IMG/VR virus record: IMGVR_UViG_3300027963_000003
DNA length: 64,000 nucleotides
Reading direction: 5' to 3' (one strand)
Origin: an uncultured virus (IMG/VR IMGVR_UViG_3300027963_000003)
Lineage: Duplodnaviria > Heunggongvirae > Uroviricota > Caudoviricetes
Below, piece by piece: positions 17,117-30,547 of the stretch (position 1 is its first letter; each line of letters starts with the position of its first letter). The translations under genes were made by a program, and so were the position numbers. Under the pieces are notes generated by a model. It worked only from the letters and a program-made list of their open reading frames with translations. It was not told where the DNA came from and ran no database searches.

Positions 17117-17473
17117 TCATTGAACGGAGTTTAGCATCTTTTCTTCGTAATGATGTATTCGGTGGCAGTTTGCGCAAAGGACTATGCACTTTTTTAATTC
17201 TTCTTGTAGCTTAGCGTATTGCCCGTTTGATAGTAAGCGGTGGATGTTTGCTTCTTTTTTACTTGGGTCTTCGTGGTGAAAGTCAAGAGCTGCTGAGTGA
17301 GCAAACCCGCATTTGGTACAGGCTAGGGTAGCTTTATATTCTTTCCACTCTGCCTTAAAAGCTTTCTTCTTGTCAATTGTTTTTTGTATTACCGCTTCTC
17401 TATTGGCTTCATAGTGTTTGCGGCTTTGCTCTTTGTGGTACGCTTTGCGTTTTTCTGGGTCTTTATATGGCAT
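17117..17473 (-). CDS. HNH endonuclease
   Basis: C..CG...LDFHH...C.VLCANCHRIHH. Confidence 0.85.
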   Translation of the reverse strand: MPYKDPEKRKAYHKEQSRKHYEANREAVIQKTIDKKKAFKAEWKEYKATLACTKCGFAHSAALDFHHEDPSKKEANIHRLLSNGQYAKLQEELKKCIVLCANCHRIHHYEEKMLNSVQ

Positions 17474-17894
17474 CTTCTAACTTATAAGTTTTGATTGGTC
17501 CACTACTGTTTGCATCTACGTTACATGCCCATTCTACTCCTTCTTCGGCAGTTAAACCCATACGTAGGCAAACCTCTGCTGCCATGCTTCCGGATCCAAT
17601 AGCCATAAAGGTTCGAACCCTTTCCCACTCAAGGTCATCCCCGCAGGAAAACAAACCCTCTTTAGTCATCTTTAAAAACGAACTGTCAGATTTTAGTTTT
17701 GGCTTAACTTTAGTTTTCTTGTTTACGTACTCAATTACTTTTTCCGCATCGCAATAATTCCCTGCAACTCCAATAAAACCGCCGTCTACAGGGAAAATCT
17801 TATCTTCAAAATACTTTATACCTGTATCAGAATCAGTGAACTGACTATCCGCAACTAGCACTTTCCTTCTCCAGTCGCCAATAATTGTTGTCAT
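17463..17894 (-). CDS. HslV/proteasome-beta-like Ntn-hydrolase (putative peptidase)
   Basis: N-terminal M-T-T-I, ADSQ, K.F, GVAG, AIGSGS..A, D..SSG motifs. Confidence 0.65.
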   Translation of the reverse strand: MTTIIGDWRRKVLVADSQFTDSDTGIKYFEDKIFPVDGGFIGVAGNYCDAEKVIEYVNKKTKVKPKLKSDSSFLKMTKEGLFSCGDDLEWERVRTFMAIGSGSMAAEVCLRMGLTAEEGVEWACNVDANSSGPIKTYKLEDAI

Positions 17895-18037
17895 TTTGTA
17901 GCCATCATATACAAACCAACGTTGCCAAGGGCATACCCAATATAGCAGACCGCCATACCCATGTTTCCTTTATAGCCTTGCTCTGCAGCTATGTAGGTGT
18001 AGATTGCACCTGTAACAATAATAAGCCATGCACTCAT
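17891..18037 (-). CDS. Small membrane protein (48 aa)
   Basis: Read manually: MSAWLIIVTGAIYTYIAAEQGYKGNMGMAVCYIGYALGNVGLYMMATK; ATGA overlap with the next gene. Confidence 0.6.
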   Translation of the reverse strand: MSAWLIIVTGAIYTYIAAEQGYKGNMGMAVCYIGYALGNVGLYMMATK

Positions 18038-18130
18038 TCGAATCCCTTGTTTTGCGTATTATATTACACATTTTTGGGTTACGTTTTATTAAAGTTTCAT
18101 GCACTTGGGGGCCGTAGCCCCCTGATTTTA

Positions 18131-18268
18131 TTACTTTTTCTTGCTATACAAGTCTTTCCAAGTATCCATTACGCAGTTGTACCAAAACTCGTACGCTTGC
18201 TTGCTCTGCTTGGTTACAGTCTCAAACTTCTCTAGTGCATCTTTGTATTGCTTTTCAAAATCAAACAT
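18131..18268 (-). CDS. Small amphipathic helical protein (45 aa), possibly phasin-like
   Basis: Read manually: MFDFEKQYKDALEKFETVTKQSKQAYEFWYNCVMDTWKDLYSKKK; AAGGA RBS. Confidence 0.5.
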   Translation of the reverse strand: MFDFEKQYKDALEKFETVTKQSKQAYEFWYNCVMDTWKDLYSKKK

Positions 18269-18340
18269 GGTTTTTCCTTTAAGTTTTTGTGTTACATGTA
18301 ACACATTTGTTGCGGTGCACCAATTATAGCATAAATATAG

Positions 18341-18420
18341 ATGTGTACAGATTTTGCGGTTTTGTATACATGTTTTTTGGATATGTACATTTTTTGGAGT
18401 TTTGTAGACACGTTTTTTTG
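18341..18420. repeat. Degenerate 2 x 40-bp tandem repeat with phased TGTA(N2)CA and T-tracts
   Basis: 18341-18380 versus 18381-18420 match at 32/40 by eye. Confidence 0.6.
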
Positions 18421-18757
18421 TACATTATAAGAAACACTTTAATTTATAAAGATGTTGTAGAACATACCTACCGTTGTTTTTACGTACGAAACAAACTCAA
18501 AAAATATATACCCCCCGGGGGTGTTTGCACGAAAACATAAGGGGGTGCTGTTCTAGGGGTTAACCCTATATATGACAGTTTAGAAAAATATACCCCCCCC
18601 CCCCCCTCTTTTATTAAATTTTAAAAAATCATAATCGTTTGAGCACAATACAGCACAAGGTGCGCGCCAAGTAACATCTAGCCAAAATGGGGTCATGGGG
18701 GTCAAGAATCGGGCGGATATAAAAAAGCGATACTGTCGGACATTATTCAAATATCTA

Positions 18758-18786
18758 TTGACATAGCGCTATGGTACAGGCACAAT
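18758..18786 (+). promoter_or_regulatory. sigma70-type early promoter
   Basis: TTGACA-17bp-CACAAT upstream of the 18833 ORF. Confidence 0.6.
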
Positions 18787-18832
18787 AGAGTTATCGGTTC
18801 GGGACATACTGTTTACGACGATATTTATAGGA

Positions 18833-19324
18833 GTGTCTAAAATGACAATCAAATTAACACCTTCAGAAGTTCGTGCCGTAAACATTGGCAATGCTTTAGT
18901 AGCTGGTAAGAATGCAACGGCTACTATTGATAAAGAATGCCAAGCGGAGCGTAAAGCCCGCAGGGGTAAAGATGTAGGCTTACTCTCTAGTGGTGACGGC
19001 TTTATGGTTCGCATTAACGAGATATTGCAAAAAGCGGGCTGGAAAGAGCAAACCATTAAGAATGCCCTTACCACAGTACGAAAAGCGGTAAACAAAGGCG
19101 ATAAGTTTAGTCTTAACCCTTATCGTGATGCTAGCAAAAAAGGTTCACAAGCGGGTAAGACTGTTGCAACTACAGGAGTGAAGTTCAAAGGCGACGCAAG
19201 CCTCGACGATATTGTGAAGGGTTTGCGTACCATGTTTAATAAGTTCAAAGAAAACGATAAGACAATAAGTTTAGCGTCTTACCTAATTGATGCGCTTAAT
19301 GATTATGAAGGTGATAGCAAGTAA
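18833..19324 (+). CDS. Basic hypothetical protein, first early gene, monocistronic
   Basis: 163 aa with its own promoter, AGGAG RBS (start may be ATG 18842) and terminator. Confidence 0.7.
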   Translation: MSKMTIKLTPSEVRAVNIGNALVAGKNATATIDKECQAERKARRGKDVGLLSSGDGFMVRINEILQKAGWKEQTIKNALTTVRKAVNKGDKFSLNPYRDASKKGSQAGKTVATTGVKFKGDASLDDIVKGLRTMFNKFKENDKTISLASYLIDALNDYEGDSK

Positions 19325-19338
19325 TCACCTAGCGGTTC

Positions 19339-19368
19339 AAAACCTCCGAGAAATCGGGGGTTTTTTTT
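19339..19368 (+). terminator. Rho-independent terminator
   Basis: CCTCCGA-GAAA-TCGGGGG followed by T8. Confidence 0.85.
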
Positions 19369-19538
19369 GCCCTTTTTTTTGAGGAACTGGTGTCATCTAG
19401 GTCGGCGAAGCCGACAGGTTTTAAATTCTTTTTGCTGTTACTTTTTCTTTTATAAGGGGCGCAATGATGAGGGTCAGCGAGGCACAAGTATGGTTGGCGA
19501 AGCCAATGAAATACTGTCAGACAGTACGGGAATAGCCA

Positions 19539-19953
19539 TGTTCACTCTGTTCACTCATGTTCACTCAGTAGTGAACAAACTTTTGGTGCGTTGCACACCT
19601 CGCAAACCCTTGTTTTATATACCTTTTCTTTCTTTCTTTCTTAATAATAATATACCATGTTCACTTGTTCACTCTATTTTAAAATGTATGACGGGGTAAA
19701 TTTTCCTAGCTTTACATTGTCAAGTTCTAATACTGTCAGACAGTACGACGACGAGCCTTTTCTTAGGTGTCATACTTTTGTTCACGAGTGAACATGGTAT
19801 ATTATATTCTCGTAACCTATTGAATCCATTAAAGAATACCTCGTTCCCTGCCCAATGAACATTGCTGAACTTAGTGAACATTTGAGTGAACAACTTGACA
19901 GAGTAAAGGTAAATGGGTAATAAAAAAAGATGTTGTGAGAATGTGAGTGAACA
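19539..19953. repeat. TGTTCAC/GTGAACA heptamer (iteron-like) field, putative origin or terminus
   Basis: TGTTCAC at 19539, 19548, 19558, 19658, 19666, 19779; GTGAACA at 19571, 19788, 19874, 19886, 19947. Confidence 0.8.
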
Positions 19954-20104
19954 AACCAAATACTGTCCGACAGTATTTAACCCCCAAATATGAAACCAGT
20001 TTTTGCTAAAGAGGGCGAGGGAAACTAAAAAACATCTTGCATAACTCAAACACGCAACCCTACTTACTGCGCACTCGTCAAAACCCAAATCGAGAACTAC
20101 CCTA

Positions 20105-20133
20105 TTGACATAGAGTTATAATAGGAGTATAAT
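20105..20133 (+). promoter_or_regulatory. Perfect-consensus sigma70 promoter
   Basis: TTGACA-17bp-TATAAT. Confidence 0.85.
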
Positions 20134-20199
20134 AGATGTATAGAGTCGAGGAACAGCCGTGTTCGAGCCAATCCAAAACCAAATACTGTCAGACAGTAT

Positions 20200-20213
20200 C
20201 GTTCTTTAAAAAT
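20200..20213 (+). promoter_or_regulatory. boxA-like antitermination element
   Basis: CGTTCTTTAAAAAT resembles rrn boxA (TGCTCTTTAACA), ~60 nt after the promoter. Confidence 0.5.
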
Positions 20214-20219
20214 ATGTAA

Positions 20220-20700
20220 AATGCCACGCTTATGCGTGGTGCAGAGTAGGCGTAGGGTGCAGTTGTTTCTAAGCTAAGGTTGTAGGAAACAGACTACTAT
20301 AAGTAAGAAGTATGCGAAAGGCAGAAGGTCGTATTTTGACTGATGAAGCCGATAGCGTGAAGTGATTGAATGTGCAAGGCGAAGTGCCGACAAATCATGA
20401 TGAACCATAAAACAGCAAGCATATTAGAACCAACAAACTAAAACAGCGAATCCCGAGCAGTATCTCTGCGGTAGTAGATTGATGTGGAATAGGTTAGGGT
20501 TTATTAACTTAATTGGGCGAAATACTGTCAGACAGTATCAGAGCCTTCAAAACCCCAAGCCGTTCGACCACACGCACCAATCCCTACCCATGCCCGAACC
20601 CCCCACAGGAACTGCAACAAACTAGCAGAGGGCAAACAAACAAAGAGAAGATTCATAGGTCAGGTTGATCTCGGTCAGCCTGCCCGCTTGAGTTTTTTTA
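20220..20700 (+). ncRNA. Candidate large structured RNA or leader
   Basis: No ORF of 60 aa or more; many hairpins and long-range pairings; ends in a hairpin plus T-run. Confidence 0.45.
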
Positions 20701-20715
20701 CAAAGGAGGTGTTAC

Positions 20716-20820
20716 ATGAAGGACTTAATGGAAGTAGTAGCTTGGGCAGTCGTAGGTGTTTTCACCTATGTACTTTTTGTATGGACTTGGAATTTAATTG
20801 ATTTTATATGGAGGTTTTAA
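20716..20820 (+). CDS. Small membrane peptide (34 aa)
   Basis: AAGGAGG RBS; MKDLMEVVAWAVVGVFTYVLFVWTWNLIDFIWRF. Confidence 0.6.
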   Translation: MKDLMEVVAWAVVGVFTYVLFVWTWNLIDFIWRF

Positions 20821-20970
20821 ATGAACTTATTTTTAGTGTTTATCAACGGGCTTATATTCCTGACTTGCTTTTATGGTCAGTTCAACCAATACGAGGTTAA
20901 TTGGTTCTTTGTGTTTGGTATGGTGTTTAGTGCCATAGTTTTAACTTTATTTATGGGAGATGAGAAATGA
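20821..20970 (+). CDS. Small membrane protein (49 aa)
   Basis: GGAGG RBS; two hydrophobic stretches; ATGA overlap with the next gene. Confidence 0.55.
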   Translation: MNLFLVFINGLIFLTCFYGQFNQYEVNWFFVFGMVFSAIVLTLFMGDEK

Positions 20971-21155
20971 ATAACTTAGTGGGAAAGACAGTAGCAAGCG
21001 TGGTCTATCAAGACCCTTGGAATAACGGAATAACCCTGACATTTACTGACGGCACAGAGGTAAGGGTGAGGGACACCACTCAAACAGGGGACATGGAAGT
21101 TTTAGTTGATGGTGTGGAAATGGAATCTAATTGGCATAAAGGAGAGGAAGAATGA
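20967..21155 (+). CDS. Hypothetical protein
   Basis: 62 aa, coupled in the early operon. Confidence 0.6.
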   Translation: MNNLVGKTVASVVYQDPWNNGITLTFTDGTEVRVRDTTQTGDMEVLVDGVEMESNWHKGEEE

Positions 21156-21271
21156 GTGAAAAACAATGGAAAAGGTTGTTGTGGCATGAGTTGTTTCATT
21201 ATGGGTTTAGACCCGACCCTGCTACACAAAAAAGAATAAGAAAACTACTACTGACAAGGAGTATAAAATGA
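21152..21271 (+). CDS. Small hypothetical protein (39 aa)
   Basis: MSEKQWKRLLWHELFHYGFRPDPATQKRIRKLLLTRSIK; ATGA overlaps at both ends. Confidence 0.5.
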   Translation: MSEKQWKRLLWHELFHYGFRPDPATQKRIRKLLLTRSIK

Positions 21272-21477
21272 AAGCAATATGTAGATGTTGTGGAGACGAA
21301 TACCCACTAGAACGCCTAGTAAAGCTAGGTTACAAAACCTGTTTAGAGTGTGGTATAGACGAAGCCCAAGCCGTAAGCGACGGGTTTACAGTAGCCATTC
21401 CGTTTAATAAGGGTGCGTATCAGTACATCCATAACCCAAAAGAACTCGCACAAACTAACCCAAAGAGGACAACATGA
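21268..21477 (+). CDS. C4 zinc-finger protein (DksA/TraR-like finger)
   Basis: CRCCGDEYPLERL..LGYKTCLEC. Confidence 0.55.
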   Translation: MKAICRCCGDEYPLERLVKLGYKTCLECGIDEAQAVSDGFTVAIPFNKGAYQYIHNPKELAQTNPKRTT

Positions 21478-21749
21478 GCAGAGCATACCAACAAAGGGTA
21501 GAGGTAAAAGACCCTTACATGACCTTACAGGAGATTGCCGACATGATGGGCATGAGTCGGGAGAGGGTCAGGCAGATAGAATTGCGTGCCTTGGGTAAGG
21601 TTAAAAAGGAACTATATAAGCGAGGCATAACGGCTGAGGACTTTCTAACTACCCTTAAGTACATGAAACCCATTAAGCCTAGCCCTGACGAAATACTGTC
21701 AGACAGTATGTACGAACTAATTGAACCCGAAAGGAACGAAGATGATTAA
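21474..21749 (+). CDS. Stand-alone sigma70 region 4 HTH protein
   Basis: MTLQEIADMMGMSRERVRQIELRALGKVK. Confidence 0.8.
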   Translation: MSRAYQQRVEVKDPYMTLQEIADMMGMSRERVRQIELRALGKVKKELYKRGITAEDFLTTLKYMKPIKPSPDEILSDSMYELIEPERNEDD

Positions 21750-21990
21750 GTGTACGGAATACCGCATGGGCAAACCCCGAACCATTACGGACAAGCCGTT
21801 AAAGATGCCACGAGCCAATGACCCTGTATATCTAGGGGCTAAGTTAGTTAAGGCTGATTCTACGCAAGCAAGACGGGAACTGGTCTCGGATGTGAACCCA
21901 TTTTTCTACATCTTTGGGGAAAACCTAACCCCATACAAAGACTATTTAACCTACGAGGAGAACATGAATGAGAAAGAAAGCAATAGCTAA
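21742..21990 (+). CDS. Hypothetical protein
   Basis: Start at MIKC; operon packing. Confidence 0.5.
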   Translation: MIKCTEYRMGKPRTITDKPLKMPRANDPVYLGAKLVKADSTQARRELVSDVNPFFYIFGENLTPYKDYLTYEENMNEKESNS

Positions 21991-22258
21991 GAAAGTAATG
22001 GCTAAGTTTAAACCCGACCCAGACTCACACCTATATCTAGGGGAAACAGACCCTGCACAGTTTATCCACAGTAACAAGACACACCGCACAGTTAGCGAGG
22101 CATTTCGTGACGCTGATTATGCAACTGCGTTTTGGCGTAGCAAGAGTGATTGGGAAGAGGCAGTAGATTTTGTAGAGCAGGCACTACTCGGGTTTATATG
22201 GGTAGGTGTAGTTGCAGGGCTAGTAGGAGCAGTAGCGTATTGGTTCATTTGGGGCTAA
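21968..22258 (+). CDS. Hypothetical protein with C-terminal TM helix
   Basis: RTVSEAFRDADYA motif and hydrophobic tail. Confidence 0.6.
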   Translation: MRKKAIAKKVMAKFKPDPDSHLYLGETDPAQFIHSNKTHRTVSEAFRDADYATAFWRSKSDWEEAVDFVEQALLGFIWVGVVAGLVGAVAYWFIWG

Positions 22259-22305
22259 TACTGTCAGACAGTATTTTTATTTCACAACATCTTAGGAGAA
22301 TCAAA

Positions 22306-23259
22306 ATGAGTTTAGAAAAGTTCGAGCATTTCAAGCAACGCTTCATCAACACCGCACCAATCAGAGGTAGAGCAGTAGAGTGCAGACCAATCGGCAAGCG
22401 TAGTAGGGATTGGGAACAGATAGTCAAGCGTTACATTGTGGAGGAGGGCGCACTTGATGTGGAGGGTGGAGAGGCATACGGCGCACACCTACATAGTACC
22501 GACTGTGTTATGTATATGGCAGATGGGTCTATCCATATTAAAACCGATGGGTGGGAAACACCAATAACGGCAGAGTTTATCAATCGTTATGTACCACGAG
22601 ATATGCGTTGCTACAAGAAATACACCAAGATATGGATTGAATATAAAAGTCAGAATTATGTATTGCATAGCACCAAACCTACTGTATTTCGCTATGTTAA
22701 ATCAGACGACGCCTACTATATCGAGAACCCTATCAAGCTAGAGCAAAAGGTAATTGACAGAACCAAGATGAAAACGGCTAGGGATAAGCTAACACCATTC
22801 CGTAACTATGCCAAGATCATGCTCAAACTAGCTGATGGGTGGTTGAGTAACGAGTTAGTAGATCAACACGCAACAGGCGACACCGATTACTATGGTCGTA
22901 GGTCTTATGAGTTTAATGGCAAGAAATATGATCGTTGGGCATTGACAGGTTCAATTAGTTCAAATATTGCAGGTGAGTTATACGAGGCTATGTGTAATGC
23001 AACGGAAGAACAATTCCCAAAACTTCTTTGTGTAATCTGTGCAACTAGCAACTACAAAGAGAGCCGTACCTGTAAGACTATTCAAGTAGAACGCACCGAC
23101 TATCAAGGCAACAAGCATATGGAGAATCAAGATATTCGTGAGCATCAGTACGACTACAAGACTGTGGACAATCGCATTAACTACCTCATTAAGCAAGTAG
23201 CTGATGTGCATACAACAAAAGAAGTAGCGTTAGGTGTGGTTGCTACAAACTGCTTATGA
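22306..23259 (+). CDS. Hypothetical protein
   Basis: Start reassigned to MSLEKF after the AGGAG RBS. Confidence 0.7.
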   Translation: MSLEKFEHFKQRFINTAPIRGRAVECRPIGKRSRDWEQIVKRYIVEEGALDVEGGEAYGAHLHSTDCVMYMADGSIHIKTDGWETPITAEFINRYVPRDMRCYKKYTKIWIEYKSQNYVLHSTKPTVFRYVKSDDAYYIENPIKLEQKVIDRTKMKTARDKLTPFRNYAKIMLKLADGWLSNELVDQHATGDTDYYGRRSYEFNGKKYDRWALTGSISSNIAGELYEAMCNATEEQFPKLLCVICATSNYKESRTCKTIQVERTDYQGNKHMENQDIREHQYDYKTVDNRINYLIKQVADVHTTKEVALGVVATNCL

Positions 23260-23270
23260 GGTTTGTGCTA

Positions 23271-23299
23271 TTGACACAGAGGTAGTATAGAGTTATAAT
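23271..23299 (+). promoter_or_regulatory. Perfect-consensus sigma70 promoter
   Basis: TTGACA-17bp-TATAAT; flanks (cta..., ...agatgtata) identical to the 20105 promoter. Confidence 0.85.
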
Positions 23300-23385
23300 A
23301 GATGTATAAGTAGATGTTGTGGGGTCGTAGCCTAATACTGTCAGACAGTATTGGGTTTTTTTAATTTTAAATCAAGGAGAAGTAT

Positions 23386-24504
23386 ATGAGTATCAAGTTC
23401 GGTAGTTCCTTAACTCTCAACGAGTTTGCTAATGCAATATCAACAGTAGGTTCTGATGTAACTATCATTGGTCAGGGTGAGCCTGGAATTGGTAAGAGTT
23501 CTATGCTCAAGGCAGTAGCCAAGCGTTACCCCGACTATGAGGTAGCCTACATTGATTGCACCCTGTTAGACCTAGGTGACTTTGCGCTTCCGTATACGGA
23601 GGAGGTGGTTCTAGAAAAACTGGCATCAACTCTCAAAGTAACTAAGTTCGCACCAAACGCTAGGTTTAAATTCCAATCGGGTAAGCCTGTAATCGTTATG
23701 CTTGACGAGATAGGCAAGGCTATGAAGGCGGTCAAGAATGTATTGCTCACGCTGATGTTAGAAAAGCGTATTGGTGATATGTCTTTGCCCGAGGGTTCGA
23801 TTGTCTTTGGTACAACTAATCTAGCAACTGATGGGGTAGGTGATAGCCTAGAGGCTCATGCTCGTAATCGGGTTTGTTTTGTGACTGTACGCAAACCACA
23901 CGCAGGCTTCCAAGCTGATGGCTCTATTGACTCTGACTCTTGGGGTGCGTGGGCTGTGGAGAATGATATTGCTCCTGAGGTATTGGCATGGGTTAAGCAA
24001 TTCCCTCATGCCTTGGAGTCTTATACTGACCCTGCCCAAAAAGATAATCTGTACATCTTTAACCCAACTAAGGCAGGACAGTCGGCGTTCGTGACCCCTC
24101 GTAGTTTAGAGAAGGCTAGTCATATAGCTAAGAAGCGTGCTGACCTAGGTGATGGCGTAACTATCTCGGCATTGGCAGGCACAATCGGTGAGAGTGCGGC
24201 TCGTGATATGCAAGCGTTCTTTACTGTGGTGGACAAGCTACCTACATGGGAGTCTATCTGTAATTCACCTACAACGGCTAAAGTTCCTGATGATGCGGTG
24301 GCTAAATGTATCTTGACCTTCTCTGCTATTACTCGGGTTGATAAAGATACGCTACCTAAGTGGCTCAAGTATGCAGACCGATTGGATAAAGAATTACAGG
24401 CGTTGTTTGCCCGTTCAATCGTGAAGTCTACTACCAAGCAAGCTATGGCGGTGTCCAATAAAGACTTTGTGAAGTGGGCTACCGATAACCAATGGTTGTT
24501 TTAA
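23386..24504 (+). CDS. MoxR-like AAA+ ATPase
   Basis: GEPGIGKS Walker A, VMLDE Walker B, TTN sensor, NR finger, TPRS. Confidence 0.85.
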   Translation: MSIKFGSSLTLNEFANAISTVGSDVTIIGQGEPGIGKSSMLKAVAKRYPDYEVAYIDCTLLDLGDFALPYTEEVVLEKLASTLKVTKFAPNARFKFQSGKPVIVMLDEIGKAMKAVKNVLLTLMLEKRIGDMSLPEGSIVFGTTNLATDGVGDSLEAHARNRVCFVTVRKPHAGFQADGSIDSDSWGAWAVENDIAPEVLAWVKQFPHALESYTDPAQKDNLYIFNPTKAGQSAFVTPRSLEKASHIAKKRADLGDGVTISALAGTIGESAARDMQAFFTVVDKLPTWESICNSPTTAKVPDDAVAKCILTFSAITRVDKDTLPKWLKYADRLDKELQALFARSIVKSTTKQAMAVSNKDFVKWATDNQWLF

Positions 24505-24541
24505 TCAATACTGTCAGACAGTATTAGAAAAGGAGAAACAA

Positions 24542-25723
24542 ATGACTAGACTAACTGCTGAACAACGAGTTCAAAAGTCCCATGTAGCATTGATGAACGA
24601 CCCTAAGTATTGTTTGTATTCGGGTATCTTCATGCTAGGTAAGACTGAGGTAGATGATGACTTGGCTACTGCTTGCACCGATGGTAAGAATACCTACTAT
24701 GGGCGTAAGTTCGTGGACAAGCTAAAGGATTCTGAATTGAAGGGCTTGATACTTCACGAGAATCTACACAAGGCTTTCCGCCATACAACTGTATGGAAAC
24801 ATCTTTACAAACAGAACCCACAACTAGCGAACATGGCTTGTGACTTTGTTATTAACTTAATGATTCACGACTCAGACCCACAAGGTGCAATGGTAACTCT
24901 ACCTGAAGGTGGTTTGTTAGACGAGAAGTATCGGGGCATGGATGCAGGCGAAGTATTTCGTTTACTTAAACAACAAGGAGGTAAGGGTGGAAAAGGCAAT
25001 GGTGATGGCGAAGATGAACAAGAAGGTGGGCAGGGCTTTGACGAGCATGATTGGGAAGGTGCAGACGCCTTATCAGAAGATGAGAAACAAGCATTGGCTC
25101 GTGAAGTCGATCAAGCATTAAGACAGGGCGCACTACTAGCAGGCAAACTCAACGGCAATGTACCTCGTGAGATTACTGAGGCAATGACGGCTAAGGTTAA
25201 TTGGAAAGAAGTATTAGCCGACTTTGTGAACTCTATCTGCAACGATAAGGATAACTCTACATGGCGCAGACCAAATCGTAGGTGGGTAGATCAGGGTGTC
25301 TATATGCCTAGCGCAATAGGTGAGGCAGTAGGTCGCATTGTTGTAGCCATTGATATGTCAGGCTCTATTGGTCCGAATGAGATAGGTCAATTCTTAGGTG
25401 AACTCTTATCCATATGTAACCATGTGCAACCCGAGGGTATCGACTTAATGTATTGGGACACCGAGGTATGCGCTCATGAGAAGTATGAACGAGGTGACTA
25501 CGAAGCAATCATGTCATCTACTAAACCTGCAGGGGGTGGTGGTACAAGTGCGGAATGTATTCCTAAATACATTGAGCAACACAAGCTAAACCCTGAGTGT
25601 GTAATCGTGCTGACTGACGGCTACATTGGTGGGTGGGGTGATTGGAAACACCCTGTGTTTTGGGGTATGACAACTGACATGGTTGCCCCTATGGGTATAT
25701 CTGTAAAAATCGAGGAGAACTAA
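24542..25723 (+). CDS. Metallopeptidase-like plus vWA domain protein (DUF2201-like)
   Basis: TACTDG, HENLH (HExxH), DMSGS MIDAS, GGGT, VLTDG. Confidence 0.8.
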   Translation: MTRLTAEQRVQKSHVALMNDPKYCLYSGIFMLGKTEVDDDLATACTDGKNTYYGRKFVDKLKDSELKGLILHENLHKAFRHTTVWKHLYKQNPQLANMACDFVINLMIHDSDPQGAMVTLPEGGLLDEKYRGMDAGEVFRLLKQQGGKGGKGNGDGEDEQEGGQGFDEHDWEGADALSEDEKQALAREVDQALRQGALLAGKLNGNVPREITEAMTAKVNWKEVLADFVNSICNDKDNSTWRRPNRRWVDQGVYMPSAIGEAVGRIVVAIDMSGSIGPNEIGQFLGELLSICNHVQPEGIDLMYWDTEVCAHEKYERGDYEAIMSSTKPAGGGGTSAECIPKYIEQHKLNPECVIVLTDGYIGGWGDWKHPVFWGMTTDMVAPMGISVKIEEN

Positions 25724-25724
25724 G

Positions 25725-25925
25725 ATGGCAATAGCTAGAGGATTTGAAACGTTGATGTTAAAGACAGAAGCTAAGAAGAAGTTTTTAGAAGCAAAGAAGA
25801 AGATGGAGTCGCAGTTAGGTGTAACTCTTACGCACTCAAATGCTATGGAGGTTATGGCTGACCAAATACTGTCAGACAGTACGAAGTTACGATTAAGGAT
25901 TGTCCCACTAACACAAGGAGAATGA
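25725..25925 (+). CDS. Small basic hypothetical protein
   Basis: 66 aa with GAGGAG RBS; contains a palindrome copy. Confidence 0.55.
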   Translation: MAIARGFETLMLKTEAKKKFLEAKKKMESQLGVTLTHSNAMEVMADQILSDSTKLRLRIVPLTQGE

Positions 25926-26767
25926 AAATGATTGGAAGCAACGCTATGCTAGTAGACCTAAACATTTCTATGTGGACAGGTCGTAAGATGGATAAGAAAG
26001 TATCCGAGGAGATTGATGTAAGCAAGAGTACCAAGGCTCGGGCAGGTAACTACAACAAGAAGTTATTGGCAGGCTCGGACAAGCTAGAGAAGGTGCAGAA
26101 GATTGCTACTGCTGTGCGTACTTGGAACTATCAACATACCTTACCTTGGTCTGATGGTGGCTCACGCTTGTTACCTATGAAGTCTTTCTTTGATTACAAG
26201 GCTACGCTAGGCAACTATGAGCAACAATACAACGATGCGGTGGATGACTTTCTTGTGGAATATCCGCAACTGGTTTCATCTTCTGCGTTTACGCTTGGTG
26301 CTTTGTTTGACCGAAACGAGTATCCCGATGTTGAGGACTTGCGTTCTAAGTTTCGCTTTAAGTATGTGTTCTGTCCTGTACCTGATGCAGGGGATTTCAG
26401 AATAGATGTTGAGGAACAGGCTAAGAACGAACTGCAACAACAATACAAAGAGTATTACGACGGCAAGTTAGCTGACGCTATGAAAGACGCATGGGATAGG
26501 TTGCATGAAACCCTGACTCATTTGAGTGATCGTATGGATTACACAGACGAGAATAAAAAGAAGTTTTGGGATTCTACTATTACCAATGCCTCTGACCTGT
26601 GTGGGTTGCTGACAAGCCTCAATGTGACTGACGACCCTAAGTTAGAAGCTATGCGTCAGAAGTTAGAGAAAGCATTAAATGGTGTAGATGCCTCAGACAT
26701 TCGTGAAAGCGAAGCAATTCGTACTAGCGTTAAGTCTAAGGTTGATGATATTTTATCTATGTTCTAA
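25922..26767 (+). CDS. DUF3150-like protein
   Basis: LVDLNISMWTGRK.D...TLPW...YP..EDLRSKF.F pattern; follows the AAA/vWA pair. Confidence 0.55.
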   Translation: MKMIGSNAMLVDLNISMWTGRKMDKKVSEEIDVSKSTKARAGNYNKKLLAGSDKLEKVQKIATAVRTWNYQHTLPWSDGGSRLLPMKSFFDYKATLGNYEQQYNDAVDDFLVEYPQLVSSSAFTLGALFDRNEYPDVEDLRSKFRFKYVFCPVPDAGDFRIDVEEQAKNELQQQYKEYYDGKLADAMKDAWDRLHETLTHLSDRMDYTDENKKKFWDSTITNASDLCGLLTSLNVTDDPKLEAMRQKLEKALNGVDASDIRESEAIRTSVKSKVDDILSMF

Positions 26768-26776
26768 GGAGGGTGT

Positions 26777-26938
26777 ATGAAGAAATGGAAAGGTTGGGTA
26801 ATTAGAAAAGAGTATTTTCTAGTCCATGTTGAAGCAGATACATGGGAAGAAGCTAAAGAAAAAATGTGGGATATAGAAGTAGAGGACGAGCCAGTAGATA
26901 TTGACTGGGAAATCTATGACATACAGGAGGATGAGTAA
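26777..26938 (+). CDS. Small acidic hypothetical protein (53 aa)
   Basis: AGGAGG RBS; MKKWKGW...VEADTWEEAKEK. Confidence 0.6.
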   Translation: MKKWKGWVIRKEYFLVHVEADTWEEAKEKMWDIEVEDEPVDIDWEIYDIQEDE

Positions 26939-27357
26939 TGGGATACAGAAGCGAGGTAGGGTTTTATATCGAATTTACAAAAGACCCCGAGGAGTTTGTT
27001 GCCCTGATGAAAGTAGATGGGCGAGATATATTCAAAGACTTCTTGCGGTTTATGTATATCGAAAACTATAAAGACAGACCAATGGAAGATGATGACCCGA
27101 AAGGTGGTGTTCACTTTTACCATGAACATTGGAAGTGGTATGACGATTCTAAAAACGGCTTTATGGATTTGCTTAACATGGCTGGAGATTTTGACAACAA
27201 CTTTAAAGCTAAGTTTGCAAGAACAGGAGAGGAGTCAGATGACACAGAAGAAGAATGGTTCAATGATGACGACTATGAACTGGAATACCCCTATATGGTA
27301 CGCAGAGTAGAAACGGCAATGGATTTAACTAAACTAAAAAAAGTGGAGGATGTATGA
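26938..27357 (+). CDS. Acidic hypothetical protein
   Basis: MGYRSEV...WKWY...RTGEESDD. Confidence 0.7.
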   Translation: MGYRSEVGFYIEFTKDPEEFVALMKVDGRDIFKDFLRFMYIENYKDRPMEDDDPKGGVHFYHEHWKWYDDSKNGFMDLLNMAGDFDNNFKAKFARTGEESDDTEEEWFNDDDYELEYPYMVRRVETAMDLTKLKKVEDV

Positions 27358-27575
27358 AAACCATAATTCATGTAAACCAACATGAGATAAAAGCCAACGC
27401 TAAGAATGGGACTACTAACCCTGTGCTAACTGTTAAAACATACAAAGATAACATCTATGCACATGAAGTAGTAATCAAGGGGGATAGTAGGATAGTTTAT
27501 TCCCCCGACAAACCCCTATCTTGCGGTGCTAAGGTATGGATAGAAACCCAAGCAGAAGTAGAAGTAATTAACTAA
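27354..27575 (+). CDS. Conserved phage hypothetical protein
   Basis: IHVNQH...YSPDKPLSCGAKVWIET. Confidence 0.7.
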   Translation: MKTIIHVNQHEIKANAKNGTTNPVLTVKTYKDNIYAHEVVIKGDSRIVYSPDKPLSCGAKVWIETQAEVEVIN

Positions 27576-27589
27576 CAAGGAGAATAAAA

Positions 27590-28399
27590 ATGCTACAACT
27601 AGACAACATAGACAAAACACAACTAAGCCCACCTGTATTAGAAATACTGGAAGCGATGGAACTAAAGCACGCCAAGTTAGGATACTGTCTGACAGTATCG
27701 GCGGTACAAAACACAGGTAGAGATCAGTATTGGCAGTTACGTTTTAACGATGCCCGCTTTTCTGATGATGCTTTAATAGATTTTGTGGGTGTAGTGGAAT
27801 GGACATACGGCAAGCGTAGTGACCACGAGTACAAGATTACCTCACGCAAGATTCAGAATGATAGGTTCGGGCATTGGGGTAACGAACACTCAGCACAACG
27901 CACTAAAGATGTTAAGAAAGCATTGAAGATTGCGATGACCAACATAGTACCATTTGAGTGGCATGAGGTTTCTGCTAATGGTAGGCGTAGGGCAGAGCAA
28001 GCACATGAGCAATGGAGTAGTGCAGACAATAGGGCTATTTACCCATTTAAAATTGGGTACGAAGAAATGTATGAAGAGATTAAATACCTGATATCCACAG
28101 GAGTTCAGTTCAAAACCGAGCAATTTAAAAAGGCGGCAGCAGGAATTGAGGCATATGAAGAGATGCGACGCAAGATAAGCATTAAACCTAAATTCGATAC
28201 GGTTATCGTGCGCCCTGACAAAGCCGTTTTTATACCCAATGGTTATGCCCTGCAACCCAAAGAGTTCGGCGCAGTTGACGACCTACCTGAACAAACCAGA
28301 ACTAATATCGCTCTTTTAAAACTTGTTGAGAAAGACACACTACTACCCGAGGTAGGTTATCGGGGTGGGGAAAACACCTACTTTATTTTGGTTCAATAG
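27590..28399 (+). CDS. Hypothetical protein
   Basis: 269 aa with AAGGAG RBS; contains a palindrome copy. Confidence 0.7.
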   Translation: MLQLDNIDKTQLSPPVLEILEAMELKHAKLGYCLTVSAVQNTGRDQYWQLRFNDARFSDDALIDFVGVVEWTYGKRSDHEYKITSRKIQNDRFGHWGNEHSAQRTKDVKKALKIAMTNIVPFEWHEVSANGRRRAEQAHEQWSSADNRAIYPFKIGYEEMYEEIKYLISTGVQFKTEQFKKAAAGIEAYEEMRRKISIKPKFDTVIVRPDKAVFIPNGYALQPKEFGAVDDLPEQTRTNIALLKLVEKDTLLPEVGYRGGENTYFILVQ

Positions 28400-28401
28400 T
28401 A

Positions 28402-28430
28402 TTGACTATGTGGTAGGTAATCTTTACAAT
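28402..28430 (+). promoter_or_regulatory. sigma70-type promoter
   Basis: TTGACT-17bp-TACAAT. Confidence 0.6.
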
Positions 28431-28448
28431 AGAAACATAAGGAAGAAT

Positions 28449-28772
28449 ATGAAAGATGGTTTTGTGGAAGCTATGGATGCAATATTTGATAAGTTTAAGG
28501 AACAGTTAGCCCCTGTGCGTGTTGAGTTTGCGGACAATAAGATACATATATCTACGCAGATAGAGATACAAGCAGGCAAGCTATTCGAACCCAAGTATTA
28601 CCACTGCGAGTACGGTGAACTACCTAGCTTTATTGCCGACAAGGTTGCCATGCTTAGAACGGCAGGGCAGGGTGTAGATGTTGATGGTATAGGTAAGTGG
28701 CGAGGTAACAAACTCTACTATGTGCAAGTATCCCCTAAACAATGGAATCAATACCACGAGGTTAAAGTATGA
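28449..28772 (+). CDS. Hypothetical protein
   Basis: Start at MKDGF; C-terminal LP....K.A.L......V.G.G motif resembles the end of the previous ORF. Confidence 0.6.
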   Translation: MKDGFVEAMDAIFDKFKEQLAPVRVEFADNKIHISTQIEIQAGKLFEPKYYHCEYGELPSFIADKVAMLRTAGQGVDVDGIGKWRGNKLYYVQVSPKQWNQYHEVKV

Positions 28773-28975
28773 ACGAACAGGACTTGAGGGATTGCTTTGC
28801 TATGTTTGCGATGAACGGCATTATTGCAAGGGGTGGTTTACATCCCGAACTGATGCCCGAAGATTGTATTGCAAGACGTTCTTATGAATTAGCAGATGCA
28901 ATGCTAGAGAGACGAAATAAAACTGAAGCAGAAGAAGGAATCGTAGCCGTTAAACCTAAGAGGAGAACGAAGTGA
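28769..28975 (+). CDS. Conserved phage hypothetical protein
   Basis: LRDCFAMFAM...ARRSYELADAML.RR motif. Confidence 0.7.
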   Translation: MNEQDLRDCFAMFAMNGIIARGGLHPELMPEDCIARRSYELADAMLERRNKTEAEEGIVAVKPKRRTK

Positions 28976-29145
28976 TACCGATACCATTTTTTGGTTGGTT
29001 AGCAGATGATGAAGAAGATACTCAGCAGATGTTGAGAGATCAAATACATATACAACAACACCGAATCAAAGAGTTAGAAAACGAAGTAATGATGTTGCAG
29101 ACCGAGTGTACTGCCTTGATAAAACAAGTTGGAGAAATCCAATGA
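28972..29145 (+). CDS. Small coiled-coil hypothetical protein (57 aa)
   Basis: GTG start after AGGAG; fills the gap with overlaps at both ends. Confidence 0.5.
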   Translation: MIPIPFFGWLADDEEDTQQMLRDQIHIQQHRIKELENEVMMLQTECTALIKQVGEIQ

Positions 29146-29369
29146 GTGAACCAGTAGCGTGGATGTATGAAAAGCCTAACGGGGCATCAAAGTTATCTTT
29201 TGTTAAAGAAAAAATGATTTGGGAAGATATGACTGAGACTCCACTCTACACCCATCCAGCAAAGACACTAACAGATGAGGAAATATGGCAGTTGTCTGAC
29301 ATGGTTTTAAATAATAGTGATGTTATTGGTTTTGCTAGAGCAATACTAAAGAAAGCGAGTGAGAAATGA
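29142..29369 (+). CDS. Hypothetical protein (EPVAW...PLY...LTDEEI...FARAIL family)
   Basis: Common phage accessory motif. Confidence 0.65.
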   Translation: MSEPVAWMYEKPNGASKLSFVKEKMIWEDMTETPLYTHPAKTLTDEEIWQLSDMVLNNSDVIGFARAILKKASEK

Positions 29370-29698
29370 CAACACCTGAGAAGAAAGTCAAGGACAAAGT
29401 CAAAAAGATATTGGCAGAGTTCGGTGCTTATTACTTTATGCCTGCTACTGGGGGGTATGGTAAGTCAGGTGTACCTGACATTGTGGCTTGTATTAAAGGG
29501 CGGTTTATTGGTATTGAGTGCAAAGCAAATGGGGGTAAGCCGACTGCCTTACAAGAAAAGAATCTAATCGACATTATGAATGTAGGTGGTATTTCAATCA
29601 TAGTAAATGAGACAGGGTTAGATAATTTTAAAGTATTGTTGGGTGTAGGATTCCCCAAAGCTGGAATTATTTACGATATGCTTAAAGGAGAAGAATGA
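29366..29698 (+). CDS. VRR-NUC domain nuclease/resolvase
   Basis: GVPDI...FIGIECK...KPTALQ. Confidence 0.85.
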   Translation: MTTPEKKVKDKVKKILAEFGAYYFMPATGGYGKSGVPDIVACIKGRFIGIECKANGGKPTALQEKNLIDIMNVGGISIIVNETGLDNFKVLLGVGFPKAGIIYDMLKGEE

Positions 29699-30062: not shown

Positions 30063-30360
30063 AATGAACGTACTAAAAGAAGCTAATGCCATCATCTACG
30101 GCGATAGAGAAAAGACTTACGGACATCCTAGTAAGAACCTAAAGACTATTGCGGTCATGTGGAACGCTTATATAGATGCGTCTTCTGCGGTGGGTGTAAT
30201 AGATGGAGCAGTAAAGGCAGAGATTAACGCTAAAGATGTTGCCGCTTTGATGATGTTGGTTAAGGTAGCTAGGTTTGCGAACGACCCAAGCCATAGAGAT
30301 AACCTAGTAGATATTTGTGGGTATGCGGCGCTAGTAGAACGGTGCGATGAAACGGAATAG
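30055..30360 (+). CDS. DUF6378-like protein
   Basis: GDREKTYGHP..N...IA.MW...DVA.LM.LVKVAR...DNLVDICGYAAL. Confidence 0.7.
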   Translation: MSEMNVLKEANAIIYGDREKTYGHPSKNLKTIAVMWNAYIDASSAVGVIDGAVKAEINAKDVAALMMLVKVARFANDPSHRDNLVDICGYAALVERCDETE

Positions 30361-30547
30361 AGAGTATCGTTGGGCGCAGGTAATGCACCACCTGCAAGGC
30401 AATCCAAGAACTATAAGAGAAATTGCTAAGTATATGGATGTAGAGTATCAGATGGTTAGAAAGTATTTATACGAACTACTTGACCAAGACAAAGTAGAAG
30501 TGCATGAGGCATATGTAAAGCCGATAAGATATAGGAGGAAGAAATGA
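30347..30547 (+). CDS. Winged-helix DNA-binding protein
   Basis: PRTIREIAKYMDV...VRKYLYEL...KVE. Confidence 0.55.
   Translation: MKRNREYRWAQVMHHLQGNPRTIREIAKYMDVEYQMVRKYLYELLDQDKVEVHEAYVKPIRYRRKK

What the first reader, a model, noticed from the sequence alone, without database searches (positions are those of the whole stretch)
18730..27699. Twelve copies of a 17-bp dyad (ATACTGTC-N-GACAGTAY) forming a density gradient over the early region
Seen: copies start at 18730 (variant ATACTGTCGGACATTAT), 19511, 19730, 19960, 20183, 20522, 21693, 22258, 23335, 24508, 25866 and 27682. The arms are nearly invariant while the central base is A, C, G or T, which suggests a dimeric protein reading a DNA dyad. 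Gaps are 781, 219, 230, 223, 339, 1171, 565, 1077, 1173, 1358 and 1816 bp: regular at ~220 bp near 19.5-20.2 kb, then mostly widening. By eye I found no copy in the other ~55 kb. Copies lie beside promoters (18758, 20105, 23271), on a stop codon (22258), between genes (24508) and inside three ORFs. Inference: this is not a simple operator pair but a site-array system. Options are roadblock 'stoperators' silencing the early region (cf. mycobacteriophage L5), parS-like loading sites, or sites that mark or protect the first-injected DNA.
Basis: partly seen in the sequence, partly recalled or inferred. Interest (0 to 1): 0.9.

Follow-up and report, generated by a model that had tools for sequence, protein, structure and literature searches.

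The report
Phage early-gene operator array with partner protein
Twelve identical 17-base palindromes mark the gene boundaries of the early region of an uncultured freshwater phage, and comparison with relatives points to the phage's first early protein as the factor that reads them.

Summary
There are 12 copies of ATACTGTC-N-GACAGTAY at the stated coordinates and none elsewhere in 64 kb, even allowing 3 mismatches.

The window is almost a whole ~64-kb phage genome. It looks lytic and podovirus-like, and comes from freshwater metagenomes.

Relatives keep such arrays at the same gene-boundary positions of the early region, but each lineage uses a different palindrome. I found at least 8 odd-spaced types and several even-spaced types.

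The "density gradient" is a side effect. Sites sit at gene starts, and the genes get longer to the right.

Two pairs of close relatives changed all their sites. In both pairs the only coding block that was replaced is the N-terminal ~100 aa of the first early gene, window 18833-19324. This protein matches no known family or fold. It is predicted to form a symmetric homodimer (score 0.79, best control 0.00).

Best reading: these are DNA operators for this fast-evolving early protein, which probably blocks host-polymerase transcription. Binding and its effect are inferred, not shown.

The scan had already noted the same phenomenon on a related genome (e1-5926717) without naming a regulator.

The parts
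18730..18746 (.). Dyad 1, variant ATACTGTCGGACATTAT. It lies 11 bp upstream of the -35 of the promoter of the first early gene.
   Evidence: The same hybrid half-site recurs at this position in relatives G002 and G005.
18758..18786 (+). Sigma-70-like promoter (TTGACA-17-CACAAT) of the first early gene.
   Evidence: A promoter sits between the dyad and the gene in relatives of 7 motif classes.
18833..19324 (+). First early gene (called fam70 here; 163 aa from the GTG start, probable ATG start at 18842). It is the candidate dyad-binding protein. It has a variable N-terminal four-helix domain, a lysine-rich linker and a conserved C-terminal helical hairpin with an acidic tail.
   Evidence: (no family hit).
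19356..19374 (+). Terminator-like hairpin with T runs after the first early gene.
19511..19527 (.). Dyad 2 (ATACTGTCAGACAGTAC).
19730..19746 (.). Dyad 3 (ATACTGTCAGACAGTAC).
19960..19976 (.). Dyad 4 (central base C).
20105..20133 (+). Perfect consensus sigma-70 promoter (12 of 12).
20183..20199 (.). Dyad 5. It starts 50 bp after the -10 of promoter 20105.
20522..20538 (.). Dyad 6.
21693..21709 (.). Dyad 7. It lies in the last codons of ORF 21474-21749, 32 nt before an ATG with a ribosome-binding site.
22258..22274 (.). Dyad 8. It begins on the last base of the stop codon of ORF 21968-22258 and lies 32 nt before the ATG of the 369-aa gene family (fam10).
23271..23299 (+). Perfect consensus sigma-70 promoter (12 of 12) upstream of the AAA ATPase gene.
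   Evidence: A conserved -10 region is seen in relatives.
23335..23351 (.). Dyad 9. It starts 36 bp after the -10 of promoter 23271. Here the flanks extend it to a 13-pair hairpin (23329-23357) followed by a T run. The ATPase start codon is 34 nt downstream.
24508..24524 (.). Dyad 10. It lies between the ATPase stop (24504) and the DUF2201 gene start (24542).
   Evidence: The position is syntenic in nearly all relatives.
25866..25882 (.). Dyad 11. It lies 39 nt before the DUF3150 gene start (25922).
27682..27698 (.). Dyad 12 (central base T). It lies near the 5' end of ORF 27590-28399 (fam18). In relatives the site lies just upstream of this gene.

Best explanation
The 12 dyads are double-stranded DNA operators for a phage-encoded dimeric protein. 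The best candidate is the product of the first early gene (18833/18842-19324, 'fam70').

Proposed sequence of events:
1. Host RNA polymerase starts at sigma-70-type early promoters (18758, 20105, 23271).
2. The first protein made accumulates.
3. It binds as a symmetric dimer, through its variable N-terminal domain, to sites placed 17-80 bp downstream of early transcription starts and at almost every gene boundary of the early operon.
4. Binding modulates transcription across the 9-kb early region. The most likely effect is a block (roadblock or shut-off, including control around its own gene).

Protein and sites co-evolve as a cognate pair. Each lineage has its own palindrome, and a switch of palindrome goes with a swap of the protein's N-terminal domain.

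Shown here: the sites, their confinement to the early region, their placement, the lineage-specific switching and the domain swap.

Inferred, with my odds:
- The dyads are protein-read DNA sites of a phage factor: about 0.8.
- The factor is fam70: about 0.65-0.7.
- The effect is repression or roadblock rather than activation or antitermination: about 0.45.
For: (1) All-or-none sites.
- 12 sites against 0.04 expected.
- No degenerate copies at up to 3 mismatches.

(2) Confinement to the early region.
- Five near-complete relatives carry 13, 14, 11, 11 and 10 sites each.
- In each relative all sites lie in one block of about 7-18 kb, with none elsewhere.

(3) Placement.
- Of 248 non-redundant sites from the window plus 35 loci, 151 (61%) are not inside a called + gene, against 19% for random positions.
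- 111 sites (45%) have a + start codon within 50 nt, against 12% for random positions.
- 47 of 266 sites (18%, against 3% random) lie 24-86 bp after the -10 of a strong sigma-70-like promoter. None lies closer than 24 bp.

(4) Lineage switching at syntenic positions inside conserved flanks.
- 46 of 81 loci have a perfect dyad family with at least 3 copies.

(5) Two natural experiments.
- L070 (TTACTGTC) and L069 (TTCACAC) are collinear, with 95% ATPase amino-acid identity. The only shared protein with a block replacement is fam70 residues ~13-112. All 14 other shared protein families compared differ evenly along their length, including two winged-helix proteins.
- L222 (TCAAGTC) and L215 (TATAGTC) are 82-95% identical in DNA. 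The unaligned coding block is again the fam70 N-terminus.
- That block in L222 aligns with the more distant L101, which shares L222's motif.

(6) Domain-level identities.
- Pairs of phages with different motifs reach 92% identity in the fam70 C-domain but at most 62% in the N-domain (199 pairs).
- Pairs with the same motif have a median N-domain identity of 60% (54 pairs).

(7) Phages with even-spaced dyads (ATTAACA-NN, ATAAACA-NN) carry an unrelated first early gene, fam49 (hhalign probability 0.3%).

(8) Predicted homodimer.
- Score 0.79, best of 3 controls 0.00.
- The three runs share at least 84% of contacts, and the partner's pLDDT is at least 76.
- The mark was reached by 20 of 30 proteins solved as pairs of one chain and by 1 of 23 solved as single chains. 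These counts hold only roughly, because my own alignment was used.

(9) Flanks are symmetric across all motif classes: A-rich upstream and T-rich downstream.
Against: - fam70 has no recognisable DNA-binding fold or family. There is no Pfam or PHROG hit. There is no PDB sequence hit. The best Foldseek E-value is 1.4, and the best VIA Z is 7.5, to a generic four-helix bundle.
- The mapping from N-domain to motif is not one to one. L098 and L074 share TTAAGTA but their N-domains are 25% identical. L070 and the window share the TACTGTC core with dissimilar N-domains. L034 and L068 have fairly similar N-domains (47%) but different motifs.
- The compared contigs are short: L070 is 18 kb, L069 17.5 kb, and L222's contig is 10.8 kb, of which 9.3 kb (locus L222) was compared. 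A binder encoded elsewhere in the ~64-kb genome could have switched too.
- Sites never overlap core promoters, so classical operator occlusion is not the mechanism.
- The site before the fam70 promoter sits at a variable distance from it, about 3-33 bp before the -35.
- No binding or expression data exist. No RNA run is listed for this stretch.
Confidence: 0.6

Rival explanations
1. The element works in RNA. Each dyad forms a small hairpin in the early mRNAs and is recognised by a phage protein, possibly the same first early protein. The role would be antitermination (as with lambda N and boxB), processing or stabilisation at gene boundaries.
For: - All sites lie in or next to the + strand early transcription units, often between a promoter and the ribosome-binding site.
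- Site 23335 extends to a 13-pair hairpin using G-U pairs and is followed by a T run.
- The candidate protein is the first early gene and has a basic disordered stretch, as lambda N does (the N comparison is recalled).
- The A-rich and T-rich flanks would lengthen a stem.
Against: - The core hairpin is weak, -4.1 to -4.6 kcal/mol. Only 1 of 12 sites extends clearly.
- Among imperfect pairs on the + strand, A.C or C.A (39) outnumber G.U-compatible G.T or T.G (13). This is the opposite of what a + strand RNA stem would favour.
- The first site lies upstream of the mapped promoter of the first gene.
- The protein is predicted to be a symmetric dimer, which suits a DNA dyad.
- There is no Rfam match.
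Confidence: 0.15
2. The dyads are bound by a host factor, and their sequence differs between phage lineages because the hosts differ.
For: - The arms TACTGT/ACAGTA resemble the arms of the gamma-proteobacterial LexA box (recalled), but the spacing differs.
- The phage relies on host-type sigma-70 promoters.
Against: - Very close relatives carry wholly different palindromes (ATPase 95% identical in L070 and L069; 82-95% DNA identity in L222 and L215).
- The exact 17-mer occurs in only 83 scattered places in 596 billion bases of 185,579 species genomes, mostly once per genome, with no clustered regulon. I estimate about 100 such hits by chance; this is my own calculation, not a tool output.
- The switch coincides with a swap in a phage protein.
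Confidence: 0.05
3. The repeats are protein-independent cassette-boundary elements. They are kept identical by gene conversion and promote shuffling of small early genes, in the way T4-type promoter-stem-loop cassettes do, or they are targets of a phage nuclease or resolvase acting on cruciforms.
For: - The densest part of the array (19.5-20.5 kb) lies in the most variable region, which holds tiny, poorly conserved ORFs.
- Gene order around the sites differs between clades while each gene keeps its site.
- An Hjc-like nuclease gene is conserved at 29366-29698.
Against: - Exact conservation of 15-17 bp with a free central base, symmetric flanks and strictly dyad form in every lineage fits recognition by a symmetric protein better than recombination alone.
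- Sites are equally kept before large conserved genes that are not shuffled, such as the ATPase, DUF2201 and DUF3150 genes.
- The switch tracks the fam70 N-domain.
Confidence: 0.07

Closest known systems
Stoperators and immunity repressor of Cluster A mycobacteriophages (L5, Bxb1). PMC6550527: passages read. PMC9283540: abstract seen in the search listing.
   Same: - Many copies of one short site per genome.
- Most sites are not in promoters but in short gaps between genes.
- The site sequence differs between related phages and co-varies with the phage's own regulator.
- The proposed action is a block to elongating polymerase.
   Different: - Stoperators are 13-bp asymmetric sites. There are 20-30 of them, spread over the whole genome and oriented with transcription.
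- They are read by a monomeric HTH repressor of temperate phages.
- Here the sites are symmetric 17-bp dyads, only 10-14 per genome, and confined to the early region of a phage with no integrase.
- The candidate protein is a predicted dimer with no HTH match.
17-bp dyad repeat of Cluster O mycobacteriophages (5'-TGTTCGGNNNCCGAACA). PMC4351075: passages read.
   Same: - A 17-bp element with invariant 7-bp arms and a variable centre.
- Dozens of copies lie between genes or near 5' ends of genes.
- No binding protein has been identified.
   Different: - There are more than 30 copies throughout the genome, with a 3-bp centre.
- In the passages I read there is no report of lineage-specific switching or of a co-varying gene.
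SPbeta repeated element (SPBRE) and the MrpR master repressor. PMC10516654: passages read.
   Same: - About 10 copies of one conserved element within a phage genome.
- The element was predicted from sequence decades before its binding protein was found by ChAP-seq.
   Different: - SPbeta is temperate and its sites lie in promoter regions.
- The binder is a catalytically dead tyrosine-recombinase fold.
- No PF00589 match was found in 0 of 5 relatives here.
Lambdoid Cro/CI 17-bp operators, and phiC31 conserved inverted repeats
   Same: - A 17-bp dyad with an odd central base, read by a dimer.
- As recalled, phiC31 has a 17-bp inverted repeat at many early-region loci.
   Different: - Lambdoid operators overlap core promoters and number six.
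- Here no site lies closer than 24 bp to a -10 element.
- No HTH repressor co-varies with the motif.

Membership tests
Cluster A stoperator system | Temperate phage with an immunity repressor and integration or partition functions. | tested here: not met
   No integrase or resolvase match (PF00589, PF00239) in 0 of 5 near-complete relatives. No such hit among window ORFs.
Cluster A stoperator system | Asymmetric 13-bp site oriented with transcription, spread over the whole genome. | tested here: not met
   The sites are symmetric 17-bp dyads. All 12 lie within 18730-27698. In relatives all sites lie in one block.
Cluster A stoperator system | Most sites lie outside promoters, in intergenic gaps. 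| tested here: met
   61% of sites are not inside a called gene, against 19% for random positions. No site overlaps a core promoter.
Cluster A stoperator system | Site sequence co-varies with the phage's own regulator. | tested here: met
   The fam70 N-domain swaps together with the motif in two pairs of close relatives. Actual binding could not be tested.
Cluster A stoperator system | The bound repressor stops elongating RNA polymerase. | not testable with these tools
   This needs in vitro transcription or RNA-seq.
Lambdoid Cro/CI-type operators | An HTH dimer reads a 17-bp dyad that overlaps the -35 or -10 element. | tested here: not met
   The nearest site begins 24 bp after a -10. The universal wHTH proteins (fam20, fam27) keep their recognition helix across a motif switch.
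Lambda N / boxB-type antitermination | An RNA hairpin downstream of early promoters is read by the first early gene product. | tested here: inconclusive
   The position after promoters and the first-gene candidate fit. The hairpin is weak, the mismatch types do not favour + strand pairing, and there are 12 sites rather than 2.
SPBRE / MrpR | A tyrosine-recombinase-fold repressor binds a repeated element in promoter regions. | tested here: not met
   No PF00589 match. The fam70 model is a helical bundle with no recombinase hit.
parS / ParB loading sites | A ParB-family protein is encoded with clustered palindromic sites. | tested here: inconclusive
   No ParB-like Pfam or PHROG hit among 88 window ORFs scanned. 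An absent hit does not exclude a divergent protein.

The most novel reading that the evidence does not exclude
A large group of lytic freshwater phages runs a 'self-recognition' circuit. An unclassified all-helical dimer, made first after infection, reads an array of private palindromes at every early gene boundary. The pair diversifies rapidly by swapping the N-terminal domain and converting all sites. This lets a phage silence or exclude co-infecting kin of its own type while leaving other types untouched. It would be an immunity-group system in phages that have no lysogeny, built on a new DNA-binding fold.
Probability: 0.22. Interest if true: 0.85.

Novelty: new variant of a known kind. Interest (0 to 1): 0.68.

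Why it matters
Multi-operator arrays with a co-evolving regulator are known mainly from temperate phages, where they define immunity groups. Here the same logic appears in a widespread group of uncultured, apparently lytic freshwater phages. More than 200 related contigs were matched.

The array has at least ten specificities. The candidate reader belongs to no known family or fold: 77 homologues were listed, none carries a Pfam domain, and the only name any source gives is 'hypothetical protein'.

If the protein binds as predicted, three things follow:
- It gives a new sequence-specific DNA-binding scaffold with a natural library of cognate protein-site pairs. This would be useful for studying how specificity evolves and for building orthogonal regulators.
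- It raises the question of why a virulent phage needs private operators.
- It shows a way to assign regulators to orphan phage repeats from metagenomes alone, by looking for domain swaps between near-identical genomes whose repeats differ.

Tried and rejected
- SPbeta identity. My first guess was SPBRE. There is no DNA match to any phage record in near or distant mode.
- The window's own assembly is not held.
- Other candidate binders were rejected.
  - fam20 (30347-30547, wHTH) and the MarR-like fam27 have the same recognition helix in L069 and L070 despite different motifs. fam27 has no member in the window.
  - 21474, 33080 and 25725 are present in only 16, 17 and 23 of 80 loci.
  - fam102 (26777-26938) scored highest in a crude regression. 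It is a 53-aa acidic protein that is absent from several array-bearing loci.
  - ORFs in the other replaced blocks of L070 and L069 have no Pfam hit.
- A virion RNA polymerase with hairpin promoters (N4-like) was considered. The 1998-aa protein shows only an LPD38 domain, and the flanks of the sites are not conserved asymmetrically.
- Fold searches of fam70 and fam49 gave no match at E <= 0.001.
- The ESM Atlas gave only unnamed viral clusters.
- The PDB sequence profile search gave 0 hits.
- Rfam gave 0 matches in 18000-29000.
- There are no tRNA genes in the window.
- No RNA holder is listed for the stretch.
- The leader hairpin of the first gene is not better than shuffles.
- KPP25 (1-50000) and phiA008 (1-30000) show no perfect dyad family of 3 or more copies.
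- In clade B, TAATGTC and TACTGTC genomes are too diverged in the early region for a clean contrast.

Full report
**Observation**

One search finds 12 palindromic sites matching ATACTGTCNGACAGTAY (24 strand-wise matches, 0.04 expected from shuffles).
- Eleven sites have perfect arms. Site 18730 has one changed arm.
- The central base is A at 9 sites and C, G and T at one site each.
- Allowing 3 mismatches in the 15-nt core adds nothing: 12 sites against 2.87 expected.
- Isolated half-sites are not enriched.
The sites are therefore all-or-none and confined to 18730-27698.

**Context**

PHROG and Pfam scans show a phage genome with two divergent arms.
- The minus-strand arm carries late genes. 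It runs from 17894 down to 1 and from 64000 down to 41387, and includes terminase 14957-16483, portal, head genes, endolysin 55294-55884, tail fibres and a 1998-aa LPD38 protein.
- The plus-strand arm is an early and replication block from 18833 to 41168. It includes:
  - AAA ATPase 23386-24504
  - DUF2201 24542-25723
  - DUF3150 25922-26767
  - family A DNA polymerase 30972-32798
  - SNF2 helicase
  - DUF927 primase
- Related IMG/VR contigs are 58.8-65.5 kb long, so the window is nearly a whole genome.
- There is no DNA match to any deposited phage.
- The nearest cultured phages by DNA polymerase are Rhizobium phage RHph_TM3_14A (36%) and Pseudomonas phage KPP25 (34%).
- No integrase or resolvase is found in 0 of 5 near-complete relatives.
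- Runs that hold the DNA are freshwater metagenomes.

**Where the sites sit**
- Two perfect sigma-70 consensus promoters (20105-20133 and 23271-23299) are each followed by a dyad that starts 50 and 36 bp after the -10.
- A third promoter (18758) lies 11 bp downstream of the variant dyad and drives the first early gene.
- Other dyads lie 17-45 nt before start codons (21693, 22258, 23335, 24508, 25866).
- I collected 248 non-redundant sites from the window and 35 related loci. L002 was dropped because it is identical to the window.
  - 61% are not inside a called plus-strand gene, against 19% for random positions in the same blocks.
  - 45% have a start codon within 50 nt, against 12% for random positions.
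- In a set of 266 sites, 18% follow a strong sigma-70-like promoter by 24-86 bp (3% random), and none lies closer than 24 bp. A further 6% precede a -35 by 1-40 bp (1% random).
Genes are tiny near 19.5-21 kb and large further right.

**Relatives**
- Using the ATPase as an anchor, 80 related loci were fetched out of 230 confirmed matches.
- A strict scan of 81 loci (7-nt arms, perfect, at least 3 copies) found a dyad family in 46:

| Dyad family | Loci |
|---|---|
| TACTGTC-N | 20 |
| TAATGTC-N | 6 |
| TATAGTC-N | 1 |
| TTCACAC-N | 2 |
| TTAAGTA-N | 4 |
| TTAAGTC-N | 2 |
| ATTAACA-NN | 9 |
| GTTATCA-NN | 1 |
| ATTAAAC-NN | 1 |

- Later scans added TCAAGTC-N, ATAAACA-NN and TAAAAAC-0, and loci that mix TATAGTC with 0 and 1 central bases.
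- Many of the 35 loci without a strict family (one of them, L072, showed only an AT low-complexity repeat) carry a looser TTAACA-NN-TGTTAA motif at the same places.
- The sites are syntenic: before the first early gene, before and directly after the ATPase gene, and before the DUF2201, DUF3150, fam10 and fam18 genes. This holds even where gene order differs.
- Alignments show the palindrome replaced inside conserved flanks.
- In five near-complete genomes all 10-14 sites lie in one block.
- In the ATPase tree the TAATGTC group is nested within the TACTGTC clade. Hybrid sites (TACTGTC-N-GACATTA) occur before the first gene in the window and in two relatives.

**DNA or RNA?**
- As RNA the core hairpin is weak, -4.1 to -4.6 kcal/mol. 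Only site 23335 extends, to 13 pairs plus a T run.
- Imperfect pairs on the transcribed strand are A.C or C.A 39 times and G.T or T.G 13 times. That is not what selection for a plus-strand RNA stem would give.
- Flanks are symmetric in all motif classes, A-rich upstream and T-rich downstream.
- There is no Rfam match.
I read the element as duplex DNA recognised symmetrically, and I keep an RNA role as the main rival.

**Host factor?**

The exact 17-mer occurs in 83 scattered places in the 596-Gb species collection, almost always once per genome. By my own arithmetic that is about the chance level. Near-identical phages also carry unrelated palindromes, which argues against a host factor.

**Who reads it?**

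The first early gene (window 18833-19324, 'fam70') is present in every odd-spaced class.
- It has no Pfam, PHROG or PDB-sequence match.
- Its 77 listed homologues carry no Pfam domain, and the only name any source gives is 'hypothetical protein'.

Structure prediction (mean pLDDT 80.2, pTM 0.53) gives three parts:

| Part | Residues |
|---|---|
| N-terminal four-helix domain | about 5-90 |
| Disordered lysine-rich linker | 97-110 |
| C-terminal helical hairpin ending in a conserved acidic tail | 120-163 |

Fold searches give only generic helical bundles.

Two natural experiments single this gene out.
- First pair: L070 (TTACTGTC) and L069 (TTCACAC).
  - They are collinear, with ATPase 95% and DUF3150 97% identical.
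  - At the DNA level the unaligned blocks are fam70 codons ~13-112 and two stretches of small unshared ORFs.
  - Among the 15 shared protein families compared, only fam70 has a block of low identity. The winged-helix proteins fam20 and fam27 keep their recognition helices.
- Second pair: L222 (TCAAGTC) and L215 (TATAGTC).
  - They are 82-95% identical over 9.3 kb, except for the fam70 N-terminus and indels of at most 250 bp.
  - L222's N-terminal block aligns instead with the more distant L101 (74% identity), which shares L222's motif. L215's block does not align with L101.

Identities over all fam70 pairs:

| Pairs | Number | N-domain identity | C-domain identity |
|---|---|---|---|
| Different motif | 199 | at most 62% | up to 92% |
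| Same motif | 54 | median 60% | median 60% |

Phages with even-spaced dyads have a different, unrelated first gene, fam49 (hhalign probability 0.3%). It is also all-helical with no fold match.

A two-copy fold of fam70 supports a symmetric homodimer.
- The score is 0.79, and the best of 3 controls is 0.00.
- The runs share at least 84% of contacts, and the partner's pLDDT is at least 76.
- The mark was reached by 20 of 30 proteins solved as pairs of one chain and by 1 of 23 solved as single chains. These counts hold only roughly, because my own alignment was used.
- This is the model's own confidence, not a measurement.

**Against this reading**
- There is no known DNA-binding fold in fam70.
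- The N-domain-to-motif mapping is not one to one. L098 and L074 share a motif at 25% N-domain identity. L070 and the window share a core motif with dissimilar N-domains. L034 and L068 are 47% identical with different motifs.
- The contrasted contigs cover only 9-18 kb of ~64-kb genomes.
- A crude regression across families did not rank fam70 first.

**Mechanism**

The sites avoid core promoters and sit in initial transcribed regions and at cistron boundaries. The most economical model is a protein roadblock or shut-off of host-polymerase early transcription by the first early product. The weaker hybrid site lies next to its own promoter. Activation or antitermination cannot be excluded. The rapid diversification into private protein-site pairs resembles immunity groups of temperate phages. 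In a phage without lysogeny functions it suggests competition between co-infecting kin, which is speculative.

**Comparison with known systems**
- Cluster A stoperators (PMC6550527, passages read) are closest in logic. The membership features of asymmetry, genome-wide spread, temperate lifestyle and an HTH monomer are not met.
- The Cluster O 17-bp dyads (PMC4351075, passages read) are closest in form. They have no known reader and no reported lineage switching.
- SPBRE/MrpR (PMC10516654, passages read) is a precedent for an orphan repeat later matched to an unusual repressor.
- I found no description of this phage group's repeats in print in my two searches on this (KPP25, listings only, six terms, no paper).
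The present work confirms it independently and proposes the regulator.

Noticed in passing
window 19539-19953: A second repeat, TGTTCAC / GTGAACA. Eleven of its 16 window copies fall in this 415-bp ORF-poor stretch (8.9 copies are expected over the whole window). They are direct and inverted, interleaved with dyads 2-4, and sit next to an AT-rich run (19620-19660). This could be a replication origin with iterons or the site set of a second regulator.
   Followed up: partly
window 20200-20520: About 320 nt without a credible ORF lie between dyads 5 and 6, directly downstream of the perfect promoter 20105. The stretch includes a GC hairpin at 20224-20239. It could be a non-coding RNA. There is no Rfam match.
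   Followed up: partly
window 20105-20148 and 23271-23314: The two consensus promoters share an extended block after the -10 (TATAATAGATGTATA), as if one promoter cassette had been duplicated.
   Followed up: no
window 18593-18606 and 18510-18522: A run of 14 C and a C6G6 palindrome lie in the divergent intergenic region between the late and early arms. This could be length-variable or an assembly-sensitive tract.
   Followed up: no
L253 (Rhizobium phage RHph_TM3_14A, record 8000-36000): This cultured distant relative carries 23 copies of GTTACC-N6-GGTAAC at up to 1 mismatch (0.04 expected) across its early region and part of its late region. It is a different dyad architecture and a possible experimental system. 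KPP25 and phiA008 show no such array.
   Followed up: partly
L215 5105, 5922, 10529; L034 6921, 12738: In the TATAGTC lineage the same arms occur both with one central base and with none (TATAGTCGACTATA).
   Followed up: no
window 22150-23259 and 27590-28399: Two genes are present in nearly all relatives (71 and 56 of 80 loci) but are only ~30% identical, while their neighbours are 60-70% identical. They are fast-evolving early proteins of unknown function.
   Followed up: no
window 17117-17894: An HNH endonuclease and an HslV-like peptidase gene sit just beyond the small terminase subunit gene, at the head of the late arm. They are found in only 5 and 3 of 80 related loci.
   Followed up: no
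window 19275-19324 (C-terminus of the first early protein): The acidic tail (consensus FLIDALDE) is nearly invariant across all motif classes, while the N-domain is swapped. It could be a docking motif for a host protein such as RNA polymerase.
   Followed up: no
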